Shown here: one piece after another, positions 6,001-9,000 of the stretch | Position numbering within the stretch: position 1 is the stretch's first letter | Layout: each line of letters opens with the position of its first letter | Position numbers: made by a program | Source of the DNA: a virus | Lineage: Duplodnaviria > Heunggongvirae > Uroviricota > Caudoviricetes | Length of the DNA: 9,104 nt | Virus record (IMG/VR): IMGVR_UViG_2671180433_000006 | Direction: 5' to 3' (one strand)

Positions 6001-9000
6001 ACAGCGCCCCGTGTGGCAGGGCAATCCAGGTGAAACAAACATCCTGCCATCAGCAAGAATCAAGTACATACGTTCTCTGGATAGATGGAAAATCTATTGG
6101 ATGCGGAAGGATATGAAATGGCATCAGTACAGTACTGAACTTTCGCTGACTGATGCGCTTGAGCTTGTGCGTGCTGACCCGGATTGCTGCTTCTTCGGAT
6201 GAGTGAAGAGACGTTTGGATGATGGATGGTCGCAGAGATGCGGCCTGATTCTAAAATAGGATATAAAAAATGAGAATACTAGGTGTTAGAGCGGCGCCCA
6301 AAGTTACATCTTTTGTTGTATATTGCACTAATGAGTCTGCACTCAAATGTGTTGATGTTATTAAAATACCTTCGACCTTAGACACACCAGAAAAATTAAA
6401 GTATGTGAGAAATAACATCCTCGACATTCTTAATTTATATAATGTTGAATTAGCTGCCATACGCGTTACTGAATCAAACTCTGATAATCTTAGCATTGAC
6501 CGCCTTTATATAGAAGCTGTTATTCAAGAAGCATTTTCAAGCAGTGATGTAAGAAAATATTACACTATTAGAAAATCTGGCATGAAATCATCATTGAACC
6601 TAACAGAGATCGAGTATAAAGAAATATTGAAGTCACACCGCAATATAAATGGAATCGATAATTCTGGTTTTACAGCTGAAACAAATGAAGCTGTTTTGGC
6701 TGCACTATCTGCGGAGGTAAGGGGATGCTAACTCCATACAAAAGAGCTGATGTAGAATTCGAATGGATTAGTGATCTAGAAGAACAGGGTTGTTTTTCAA
6801 AAGTATATCTGGCTCATGACAGACACCTAGCTCATGACTTGGTGATTAAAGAAATAGAAAAAAAAGAAAACACTAACCACGACGACTACTTTAATGAAGC
6901 AAGGCTTCTCTATAAACATGCACATCCAAATATTGTGCAAGTTCAGTATGCTGCTCAATGTGAGAGCAATATCTATATAGCCATGCCATTTTATCATAAT
7001 GGTTCGCTAAACCAATTAATGAAAAAAAATAATCTTACAAGCAGGGAGATAATACGGTATTCCATTCAATTTTTAAGTGGACTTTATCATATACACTCAA
7101 AAGGTCTTATGCATTTTGATATAAAACCTAATAACATTATGATATCAAACAGAAATGAGGCCATGCTATCTGACTTTGGATTATCTCAGTTAGTCAATGA
7201 GGAATCGAGAGCTGCGCCTGAGTTTGGATATCATTTTCATGTGCCACCGGAATATTTTTCTTTATCAACAAATGATTATAATTTCACATATGACATATAT
7301 CAGGCAGGATTAACCATATATAGAATGTGTGTTGGACATGATAATTTTGAAAGAGAAAGATCTGCATTTAGCACGATTGAACAACTCAGAGAGTCGATAA
7401 TTAATGGCTGCTATCCATTAAAAGAGTATCCTCCCCATATACATAAAAAATTAATAACAATAGTGAACAAATGCATTCATGTAGATCCAAATGAAAGATA
7501 TCAATCCGTACTAGATGTACTAAACGATCTCTCAGCTATAAGTGATGGCGTTCTTGACTGGCGTCTACAGATGACGAAACCAACTAACGGCACATGCGAA
7601 TGGCAAAAAAAGTCTGGGGACGCTATACTGTCTATAGTTTTTGACGCAGAAAATTCGTCTACTACTGGTTTTCGTTTATACGATGATGGGCGGAAAAGGC
7701 GTGCTACGAACTTAACAATATCCTCAGGATGTACCCCTACAAAACTGTATAGGTTATTAAAGGATAACTGATCATGAAAAAGCGCGAGGAAGTAAGCAAG
7801 CTGCCTCGCAGACGTGATGCAGCATTAGCGGTTCCCTACAAAAAAGATGAGTTCATAAGCCCTTCTGATGACAAAAAATTTTCAAAGGCGAAAAGTTTTA
7901 CATCTACATCTCTAAAAGATAAATACTTTAAAATCTAGCCCGGCCTCAGCGCCGGGTTTTCTTTGCCTCACGTTCGCCCACCTAAAAAACATAACCAATT
8001 GTATTTATTGATGTAACTCGCTAAACCATGCAGTTATGATCCCTGCCGCATAACCTTCATCAGCCACATTTTCAAAAATAAATTTCCTTATATATCAGAA
8101 TCATACTTCGTAGAGTTAATAAATCACCAAAATTCGTACCAATAGTTCTTGATAATGTCGAACTATTGGTTCATTATTATCATCGTCAGCAGGACGCATT
8201 ACTCACCAGGTCGGTGAATATACAACGATTCGAATATGAATCTACGGCGCTGACAAAGCGCAATAACCAAAGTGAACTTTGGGGTGTGGTGAAGGGTTCA
8301 TGGACGGGAATATGTCGCACGTAAAGCGGCGAGGCCTGCGGGACTATTGCCGAATTGAAGTAGGCCGAAACAGGTCGAAATGGGTCTCCCACCTACCACA
8401 CCACCAAAGTTCATCAGGAGGTCTATATGACACGCAGAACTCAGTTCAAAGGCAATTCACGTTCTCGTCGTCGTGAGCGTTTAAAGGCAAAGGCATTAGC
8501 TAACGGCGTACTGGCCCGCGAAGAAGCAATAAGTTCAGAAGTATTACACCGCCCTACTCTAAGCAGAGCGCAGATTCAGGCTAAAGGTACTCACGAAACG
8601 CCTGAGCGCATAGAAGACGCTAAGCCAATTAAGTTCATGGCACAGGACGTGATCTGGCAACAGAAAGAATACAGACGCAATCTGGAGCGAGCGGCCATTG
8701 TGTACGCGAATGAGTTTGGACATAAGCAACCAGAAACTGGTGTATGTCTTCCAAACGTAGCCATTTACGCGGCAGGCTACCGGAAATCAAAACAACTGAC
8801 GGCGAGGTGACTTGTGTTGGTCGCCAGAAAATGAAATTAGGCAGCAAACCACTTATTTGAGGTGAGATATGACAAAATCATGGAGCGTACCTTTTCCTGA
8901 ATCAGAAACTGAACATGATGGAATGCCTGTTTTCTGGAGATTCCAGGCGACAGTTGAAGAAGATGGGATAAAAATATGAGGTAGCCTGAGTTTAACGGAC

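What the first reader, a model, noticed from the sequence alone, without database searches (positions are those of the whole stretch)
7529..7768. C-terminal ~80-aa extension of the kinase with no recognisable motif: possible sensor or targeting domain
The catalytic core ends around the DPNERY motif (about aa 255-260). The remaining residues (~269-348; LQMTKPTNGTCEWQKKSGDAILSIVFDAENSSTTGFRLYDDGRKRRATNLTISSGCTPTKLYRLLKDN) show nothing I recognise. In kinase-based defence the non-catalytic domain commonly determines the trigger or the substrate, so this is where specificity probably lies.
Basis: inference. Interest (0 to 1): 0.5.

Follow-up and report, generated by a model that had tools for sequence, protein, structure and literature searches.

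The report
C-terminal domain of phage 933W Stk kinase
The 77-residue tail is a real, separately folded domain of the already known 933W prophage exclusion kinase Stk; it occurs only in this kinase family, and the kinase always sits between two other conserved small genes, so the tail is more likely a built-in regulatory or docking piece than a free-standing phage sensor.

Summary
ORF 6725-7771 encodes a 348-aa Hanks-type kinase whose Pfam kinase match ends at aa 260. Residues ~272-348 match no Pfam or NCBIfam model.

The gene is 99.9-100% identical to stk of Shiga-toxin phage 933W, a known abortive-infection kinase that excludes phage HK97.

The tail has near-constant length from E. coli phages to Bacteroidota, with W279 and W293 near-invariant. 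It is under purifying selection (dN/dS ~0.21, against 0.06 for the kinase core) and shows no domain swapping. This is not how an exchangeable specificity module usually looks.

New here: the kinase is always the middle gene of a translationally coupled three-gene cassette. Upstream is a 153-aa RuvC-like protein whose first catalytic Asp is replaced by Arg. Downstream is a ~55-aa strongly basic protein. These are equally good candidates for sensor or regulator.

The sensor reading is therefore only partly supported. The gene itself is already known.

The parts
6725..7771 (+). stk: 348-aa Hanks-type (eukaryotic-like) protein kinase of phage 933W type
   Evidence: ORF. It is 99.9-100% nucleotide identity to stk of 933W (AF125520) and 38 other Stx-phage records. 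Pfam Pkinase scores 158.8 bits against a cut-off of 31.7.
6785..7537 (+). Kinase catalytic domain, aa 21-271
   Evidence: Pfam match aa 21-260. Motifs: GCFSKV at aa 22, VIK with Lys42, HFDIKPNN at aa 130 (non-RD), DFG at aa 150, PPE at aa 174, DPNER with Arg258. These residues are 100% conserved in 87 relatives. The model's last kinase helix is aa 262-270.
7538..7768 (+). C-terminal tail domain, aa 272-348 (the finding)
7553..7561 (+). LDW motif (L277 D278 W279) at the start of the tail
   Evidence: Conserved 92%, 89% and 97% in 87 family members. Confidence here is higher in the full-length model (block mean 94) than in the tail-only model (77), which suggests packing against the kinase (inference).
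7601..7603 (+). W293, near-invariant Trp in the first long strand of the tail
   Evidence: 98% conserved; invariant in the 40-sequence alignment.
7688..7702 (+). Basic hairpin loop GRKRR (aa 322-326)
   Evidence: G322 is 61% conserved. The most frequent residue at 325 and 326 is Arg (48% and 64%), and the family consensus reads GxxRR.
7736..7765 (+). C-terminal amphipathic helix of the tail (aa 338-347)
   Evidence: DSSP on both models. The most frequent residues are Ile at 341 (57%; the window has Leu) and Leu at 345 (76%).
6270..6731 (+). Upstream partner gene: 153-aa RuvC-like (RNase H-fold-like) protein, overlapping the kinase start by 7 nt
   Evidence: PHROG 3875 'RuvC-like Holliday junction resolvase'. 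Pfam RuvC is only sub-threshold: E 0.04 here, best 1.8e-4 in 6 of 28 relatives. A homologue lies directly upstream of the kinase in 86 of 86 loci; in the 86 loci where both ORFs could be extracted the gap is -14 to +5 nt in 85. Searching from the partner side, 79 of 80 viral loci have the kinase directly downstream. R7 replaces the first RuvC catalytic Asp.
7774..7938 (+). Downstream small gene: 54-aa strongly basic protein, starting 2 nt after the kinase stop
   Evidence: PHROG 4063. A 49-72 aa ORF coupled to the kinase stop is present in 88 of 88 unique loci, against 16% after shuffling. Shared motifs appear in the alignment. Mean net charge is +7.
7937..7968 (+). Intrinsic-terminator-like hairpin plus T-tract that closes the operon
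   Evidence: 8-bp stem with 6 G-C pairs, then TTCTTTGCCT. A terminator is annotated here in 933W.
5093..5800 (+). cI repressor (context: the cassette lies downstream of cI, where rexAB lies in lambda)
   Evidence: Annotated cI in all matching phage records. Literature: stk is co-transcribed with cI from PRM (PMC3564112; PMC3430580).

Best explanation
The tail (aa ~272-348) is a small, autonomously folding alpha/beta domain. It is an integral, family-defining part of the Stk exclusion kinase.

Most likely it acts as a built-in regulatory or adaptor domain. It would pack on the kinase and dock the two co-encoded proteins: the RuvC-like 153-aa protein upstream and the ~55-aa basic protein downstream. 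This would keep the kinase quiet in the lysogen and pass on activation when a superinfecting phage such as HK97 arrives. The active kinase then phosphorylates cell proteins and aborts the infection.

On this reading, trigger specificity belongs to the three-protein cassette as a whole, not to the tail as an exchangeable sensor module.

Shown: identity with stk; intact catalytic motifs; the fold and conservation of the tail; its restriction to this family; the strict three-gene linkage.

From the literature: Stk-dependent exclusion of HK97, activation on infection, and co-transcription with cI.

Inferred: docking and autoinhibition by the tail.
For: Identity: 99.9-100% to 933W stk.

Literature:
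- Stk is made in the lysogen with cI and aborts HK97 infection (PMC3564112).
- It is activated on HK97 infection and has little activity otherwise (PMC3681748).

The tail as a domain:
- It folds confidently both within the full-length protein (pTM 0.89, tail pLDDT 83-96) and alone (pLDDT 88.5).
- It is present at nearly constant length in all 87 extracted relatives (kinase 339-355 aa) and in 78 complete kinases from viral contigs (336-352 aa).
- W279 and W293 are 97-98% conserved.
- dN/dS is 0.21, so it is selected but looser than the core at 0.06.
- There are no pairs with similar cores and unrelated tails.
- A tail-only HMM against 1.84 billion representatives gives 78 hits. Apart from two weak partial matches, they are full-length family members or C-terminal fragments continuous with the kinase C-lobe.

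Linkage:
- The partner gene lies upstream in 86 of 86 loci with stop/start overlap.
- The kinase lies downstream of the partner in 79 of 80 viral loci; the remaining contig ends 3 nt after the partner.
- A small basic ORF follows in 88 of 88 loci.
- In close enteric relatives the three genes move together behind different repressors and into a P2-like prophage.
Against: - No direct evidence of contact between the tail and either neighbouring protein.
- A mirror-tree test did not single out the tail. The partial correlation tail-partner given core is 0.49, and core-partner given tail is 0.47.
- Model coordinates could not be inspected, so where the tail packs on the kinase is unknown.
- The tail is the fastest-evolving part of the kinase, which also fits a sensor surface.
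- I could not read the primary Stk papers. I therefore do not know whether stk alone on a plasmid was shown to be sufficient for exclusion. If it was, that would weaken any obligatory role for the neighbours.
Confidence: 0.45

Rival explanations
1. One reading: the tail is itself the sensor. It binds the phage trigger (for 933W, an HK97 product) directly and so sets which phages are excluded.
For: It is a separate non-catalytic domain. It is the most variable part of the protein: mean pairwise amino-acid distance is 0.76 against 0.50 for the core, and dN/dS is 0.21 against 0.06. Conserved positions are mostly core-like residues (Trp, Gly, aliphatic), leaving a variable surface. Stk is switched on by infection (PMC3681748).
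Against: There is no domain-wide positive selection (maximum pairwise omega 0.47). There is no swapping of tails between lineages. The same domain architecture is kept across phyla whose phages differ greatly. Two other strictly linked proteins could do the sensing.
Confidence: 0.2
2. The tail is a substrate-targeting or localisation domain. It would bring the kinase to its targets, for example nucleic-acid-bound or acidic proteins through the basic GRKRR loop, without any role in sensing.
Confidence: 0.15
3. The tail is only a structural cap or an oligomerisation element needed for stability, with no part in specificity or regulation.
For: Constant length and conserved hydrophobic core residues. 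High pTM for the two-domain model suggests rigid packing.
Against: A 75-aa independently folding domain kept across phyla together with two coupled genes is more than a cap usually needs. The isolated tail is predicted to fold on its own.
Confidence: 0.15

Closest known systems
Stk of Shiga-toxin phage 933W (prophage-encoded eukaryotic-like kinase that excludes HK97 by abortive infection; Tyler & Friedman 2004, Friedman et al. 2011, as cited in PMC3564112, PMC3681748 and PMC3430580)
   Same: It is the same gene: 99.9-100% nucleotide identity over cI to the terminator, at the same position downstream of cI.
   Different: Nothing differs in sequence. Not found in the papers I could search or read: a description of the tail as a separate folded domain, or of the conserved three-gene cassette. 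The two primary papers were not available.
PD-T4-6 (single-gene Ser/Thr kinase anti-phage system; PADLOC models)
   Same: Hanks-type kinase used in phage defence. PADLOC PD-T4-6 models match at E 1e-37 and weaker.
   Different: The matches stop at about aa 271-288, so the tail is not covered. The highest-scoring PD-T4-6 model is only 292 positions long. PADLOC has no model for the partner or the small protein, and PADLOC lists PD-T4-6 under a single gene name.
MADS MAD6 kinase and Mokosh MkoA kinase domains
   Same: The best PADLOC hit is mad6 (E 7e-50), and MkoA also matches over the kinase domain.
   Different: NCBIfam MAD6 scores 122 bits against a cut-off of 460. Those are much larger multi-domain proteins in other gene contexts.
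Staphylococcal Stk2 / PknB-PASTA type kinases
   Same: The closest solved sequences are bacterial Hanks kinases: S. aureus kinase 4eqm, StkP, PknB. Stk2 is a defence kinase activated by a phage protein (Depardieu 2016, cited in PMC9122126).
   Different: NCBIfam PknB_PASTA scores 122 bits against a cut-off of 450. There is no transmembrane segment or PASTA repeat here, and the C-terminal domain is unrelated.
Kinases regulated by a small domain after the C-lobe (KA1 domain of MARK/Chk1, AMPK alpha C-terminal domain). This is an analogy from my own knowledge.
   Same: A small beta-sheet-plus-helix domain directly follows the kinase. Foldseek's top full-length hits are AMPK alpha chains aligned over 363-406 columns.
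Tripartite kinase toxin-antitoxin modules such as HipBST (PMC10627512; seen only as a title and abstract)
   Same: A three-gene module built around a kinase.
   Different: HipT is a HipA-family kinase, not a Hanks kinase. The partners are unrelated. No toxin-antitoxin behaviour has been shown for the Stk cassette.

Membership tests
Hanks-type protein kinase (Pfam PF00069) | Profile score above the curated cut-off | tested here: met
   158.8 bits against a cut-off of 31.7, aa 21-260.
Hanks-type protein kinase (Pfam PF00069) | Catalytic residues: ATP-binding Lys, catalytic loop HxDxKxxN, DFG, APE-like motif, subdomain XI Arg | tested here: met
   K42, H130-F-D132-I-K134-P-N-N137, D150-F-G, P174-P-E176 and R258 are present, and each of these residues is 90-100% conserved in 87 relatives. 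The loop is HFD, not HRD, so this is a non-RD kinase.
933W Stk exclusion kinase | Sequence identity with stk of phage 933W | tested here: met
   99.9% over 2201 nt to AF125520 / NC_000924 and 100% to four other phages (six records).
933W Stk exclusion kinase | Location in the immunity region downstream of cI, before a terminator | tested here: met
   cI is at 5093-5800, stk at 6725-7771 and a terminator-like site at 7937-7958. Co-transcription from PRM is from the literature only.
933W Stk exclusion kinase | Infection-activated kinase activity and abortive exclusion of HK97 | not testable with these tools
   Reported in the literature (PMC3681748; PMC8008677). This needs experiments.
PD-T4-6 (PADLOC) | Full-length match to a PD-T4-6 model, as a single-gene system | tested here: inconclusive
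   Kinase-domain matches only, ending at about aa 271-288. The tail is not covered, and here the kinase is always part of a three-gene cassette.
MADS MAD6 kinase (NCBIfam NF047741) | Score above the equivalog cut-off | tested here: not met
   122.1 bits against 460.
Stk1/PknB PASTA kinase (NCBIfam NF033483) | Score above the cut-off, and PASTA repeats | tested here: not met
   122.3 bits against 450, with the match limited to aa 21-276.
KA1 / AMPK-alpha C-terminal domain (for the tail) | Fold match of the isolated tail to KA1 or AMPK C-terminal structures | tested here: not met
Any curated domain family (for the tail) | Significant match in Pfam, NCBIfam, PADLOC or PDB sequences | tested here: not met
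   No Pfam or NCBIfam hit for the tail alone. PADLOC matches to the full-length protein end at or before aa 295. The best PDB profile hit has E 0.29.
RuvC resolvase (for the upstream partner) | Pfam RuvC above the cut-off and the four acidic catalytic residues | tested here: not met
   14.2 bits against 22.2 here; 6 of 28 relatives match, the best at E 1.8e-4. No PDB sequence hit. The position of the first catalytic Asp is Arg in at least 90% of relatives, while E68 and E140 are invariant. Placing these residues on RuvC positions is my own reading of the alignment.

The most novel reading that the evidence does not exclude
Stk is not a lone kinase. It is the effector of a widespread, strictly linked three-protein anti-phage cassette: a RuvC-like pseudo-nuclease, a non-RD Hanks kinase with a private C-terminal domain, and a ~55-aa basic protein. 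In this reading the tail is the docking platform that couples a sensor and/or inhibitor subunit to the kinase. One possibility is that the conserved aromatic C-terminal strand of the small protein adds onto the tail's beta-sheet. The cassette occurs in Alpha-, Beta- and Gammaproteobacteria, Bacteroidota and their prophages. It is not represented as a multi-gene system in PADLOC-DB 2.0.
Probability: 0.3. Interest if true: 0.65.

Novelty: already known. Interest (0 to 1): 0.4.

Why it matters
Stk of 933W is one of the few experimentally studied kinase-based abortive-infection genes, and it is carried by Shiga-toxin prophages of pathogenic E. coli (225 of 5,426 complete E. coli genomes). How it is kept off in the lysogen, and how it is switched on by a superinfecting phage, was not explained in any paper I could find or read.

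Three results give concrete constructs to test:
- The uncharacterised tail is a private, conserved domain.
- It is not an exchangeable module.
- The kinase is always flanked by the same two coupled genes.

The constructs are tail deletion, Trp mutants and single-gene deletions. If the neighbours matter, this classic system should be treated as a three-gene system rather than a single-gene one.

Tried and rejected
1. The tail as the end of the C-lobe. Rejected: Pfam and PDB profile alignments stop at ~260-273, and the tail folds on its own.

4. The tail in other architectures.
- The word-indexed search with the tail profile was uninformative, with one fragment hit.
- The exhaustive HMM search found only this family.
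- Two weak multi-stretch hits, P0236 and P0261, look like chance matches to repeat proteins.

5. Mirror-tree co-evolution of the tail with the partner. Uninformative, because everything co-diverges.

6. Divergent alleles in the phage collection for selection analysis. None exist there; all 39 records are at least 99.8% identical. Loci from genomes were used instead.

7. The partner as a true RuvC. Only sub-threshold similarity and no PDB sequence hit.

8. The primary Stk papers could not be read. Literature searches found no description of the tail domain or of the cassette.

Full report
**What is in the window**

The window is the immunity region of a lambdoid Shiga-toxin phage. On the + strand the genes run in this order:
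- cI, 5093-5800
- a DUF3024 gene, 5861-6202
- a 153-aa ORF, 6270-6731
- the 348-aa kinase, 6725-7771
- a 54-aa ORF, 7774-7938
- a terminator-like hairpin, 7937-7958
- an N-like gene, 8427-8810

Positions 5800-8000 are 99.9-100% identical to phage 933W and 38 related Stx phages, where the kinase is annotated stk. The three-gene stretch 6270-7938 is found in 225 of 5,426 complete E. coli genomes.

Papers that I could read say the following:
- stk is co-transcribed with cI and aborts infection of the lysogen by HK97 (PMC3564112; PMC8008677).
- Stk has little activity until HK97 infects (PMC3681748).
- Its expression depends on PRM (PMC3430580).

The two primary papers (Tyler & Friedman 2004; Friedman et al. 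2011) were not available.

**Check of the observation**

The Pfam kinase domain covers aa 21-260 (E 2e-46). DPNERY is aa 254-259, with the invariant subdomain XI Arg at position 258. The last kinase helix ends near aa 270.

The tail alone matches nothing in Pfam or NCBIfam, and PADLOC matches to the full-length protein end at or before aa 295. A family profile aligned to all PDB sequences stops at about position 273. The tail profile's best PDB hit has E 0.29. So a ~75-aa extension without a curated motif is real.

**What the tail is**

With a 40-sequence alignment, AlphaFold2 gives a confident full-length model: pLDDT 88.4, pTM 0.89, and tail blocks of 83-96. The tail modelled alone is also confident: pLDDT 88.5, pTM 0.73.

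The fold is:
- a short strand at the LDW motif
- three long antiparallel strands, aa 290-297, 300-307 and 312-319
- a short strand, aa 324-326, after a basic GRKRR hairpin
- a C-terminal helix, aa 338-347

Fold searches gave no close relative:
- Foldseek against viral models gives nothing at E <= 0.001.

**Distribution and selection**

Relatives of 36-87% identity occur in Gamma-, Beta- and Alphaproteobacteria, Bacteroidota and Ignavibacteria.
- Length: all 87 extracted kinases are 339-355 aa. The 78 complete ones from viral contigs are 336-352 aa. The tail is therefore always there.
- Conserved residues: L277, D278, W279 and W293 are 89-98% conserved. A Cys at the alignment position of I332 is 87% conserved, although the window's clade lacks it.
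- Architecture: a tail-only HMM run against 1.84 billion cluster representatives found 78 proteins. These are full-length family members, or C-terminal fragments whose upstream residues continue into the kinase C-lobe. Two weak repeat-protein hits are probably chance. So the domain is private to this kinase family.
- Rate of change: in close pairs the tail changes about twice as fast as the core, in proportion, with no case of similar cores carrying unrelated tails.
- Selection: median dN/dS is 0.21 for the tail, 0.06 for the core and 0.07 for the upstream partner.

The tail is therefore functional and looser than the core. It is neither hypervariable nor modular.

**The surroundings change the picture**

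In Pseudomonas and Elizabethkingia the kinase is preceded by a 152-155 aa gene that is 37-41% identical to window ORF 6270-6731.

*Linkage of the upstream partner:*
- All 86 fetched loci have this partner directly upstream on the same strand. In the 86 loci where both ORFs could be extracted (the window included), the stop-to-start distance is -14 to +5 nt in 85.
- Searching from the partner side in IMG/VR, 79 of 80 loci have the kinase directly downstream. The exception ends 3 nt after the partner.

*Nature of the partner:*
- It is called RuvC-like by PHROGs.
- It only reaches sub-threshold Pfam RuvC scores and has no PDB sequence hit.
- Arg7 sits where I place RuvC's first catalytic Asp, while E68 and E140 are invariant.
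- It may be a remodelled, possibly non-cleaving, RNase H-fold protein. This is inference.

*The downstream small gene:*
- A 49-72 aa ORF starts within a few nucleotides of the kinase stop in 88 of 88 unique loci, against 16% in shuffled controls.
- These small proteins share a basic N-terminus with an x-[T/R]-R-[A/S/E] motif and an aromatic C-terminal strand-like motif: GYxxW, HYIxV, or KYFKI in the window.
- They carry a mean net charge of +7.

*Mobility and context of the cassette:*
- In enteric relatives of 77-86% identity, the three genes travel together behind three different repressor genes and into a P2-like prophage, without the DUF3024 gene.
- Elsewhere the cassette sits beside Abi_2, an LlaJI-type restriction system, ArdA and integrases.
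- PADLOC has no model for either neighbour.

**How it most likely works**

*Shown or reported:*
- The kinase is catalytically intact. It is of the non-RD type, with HFD in the catalytic loop.
- It is made in the lysogen, is quiet until infection, and then causes abortive infection (literature).

*Inferred:*
- Something must hold it off and something must sense the phage.
- The tail is invariant in architecture, private to the family and co-inherited with two translationally coupled proteins.
- The best-supported reading is that it is a built-in regulatory or adaptor domain that packs on the kinase and docks one or both neighbours, and that specificity resides in the complex (confidence 0.45).

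*Rivals:*
- Direct sensing by the tail remains possible (0.2), because it is the fastest-evolving region.
- A substrate-targeting or localisation role through the basic loop (0.15).
- A purely structural role (0.15).

A mirror-tree test could not separate these, with partial correlations of 0.49 and 0.47.

**Comparison and novelty**

The gene is the archetypal 933W stk, so the feature is already known as a gene and as a defence function.
- It resembles PD-T4-6, MAD6, MkoA and PknB-type kinases only over the catalytic domain.
- It fails the curated cut-offs for MAD6 and PknB-PASTA.

In the papers I could search, I found no description of the domain nature of the tail, its restriction to this family, or the strictly conserved three-gene cassette. 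That absence is limited by the library, which lacks the primary papers.

**Verdict**

The tail is a real, uncharacterised domain, but the evidence points away from an exchangeable specificity module and towards an integral part of a three-protein system. Interest is moderate (0.4). Most of the value lies in the cassette and in the precise experiments it suggests.

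Noticed in passing
window 6270-6731 (+): The 153-aa ORF overlaps the kinase start by 7 nt (ATGCTAA). It is annotated RuvC-like, but Arg sits at the position I assign to RuvC's first catalytic Asp, while E68 and E140 are invariant. It is strictly linked to the kinase in 86 of 86 fetched loci (80 GTDB genomes plus 6 other contigs) and 79 of 80 viral loci. Possibly a pseudo-nuclease sensor subunit.
   Followed up: partly
window 7774-7938 (+): A 54-aa, very basic ORF starts 2 nt after the kinase stop and ends at the terminator. An equivalent 49-72 aa ORF with shared N- and C-terminal motifs follows the kinase in 88 of 88 unique loci across phyla (16% expected by chance). RefSeq calls it a hypothetical protein.
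   Followed up: partly
window 5861-6202 (+): The DUF3024 protein (Pfam E 2e-31) between cI and the cassette matches the PADLOC candidate defence family PDC-S43 (E 5e-42). It is absent from the cassette in the related enteric prophages L087-L090, so it looks like a separate, second moron in the same operon.
   Followed up: no
window 7112-7135 (+), kinase aa 130-137: The catalytic loop is HFDIKPNN, so this is a non-RD kinase. Phe131 is 97% conserved in the family. The loop is of the Ser/Thr type, although Stk is described in the literature as a tyrosine kinase.
   Followed up: no
L087-L090: The same three-gene cassette (77-86% identical kinase) sits behind three different repressor genes in lambdoid prophages and next to tail genes of a P2-like prophage. 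The cassette, not the immunity region, is the mobile unit. It occupies the slot that rexAB has in lambda.
   Followed up: partly
family alignment, position of window I332 (window 7718-7720) and C336 (window 7730-7732): A Cys is 87% conserved in the tail across the family. It is replaced by Ile in the 933W clade, which instead has a Cys four residues later (SGC). Possibly a compensating shift of a functional or structural Cys.
   Followed up: no
L001-L003 and L012-L019 (Pseudomonas loci): In the Pseudomonas clade the small downstream ORF overlaps the last 29 nt of the kinase, that is, the tail's C-terminal helix codons. This lowers dS there and inflates the tail's dN/dS in those pairs.
   Followed up: no
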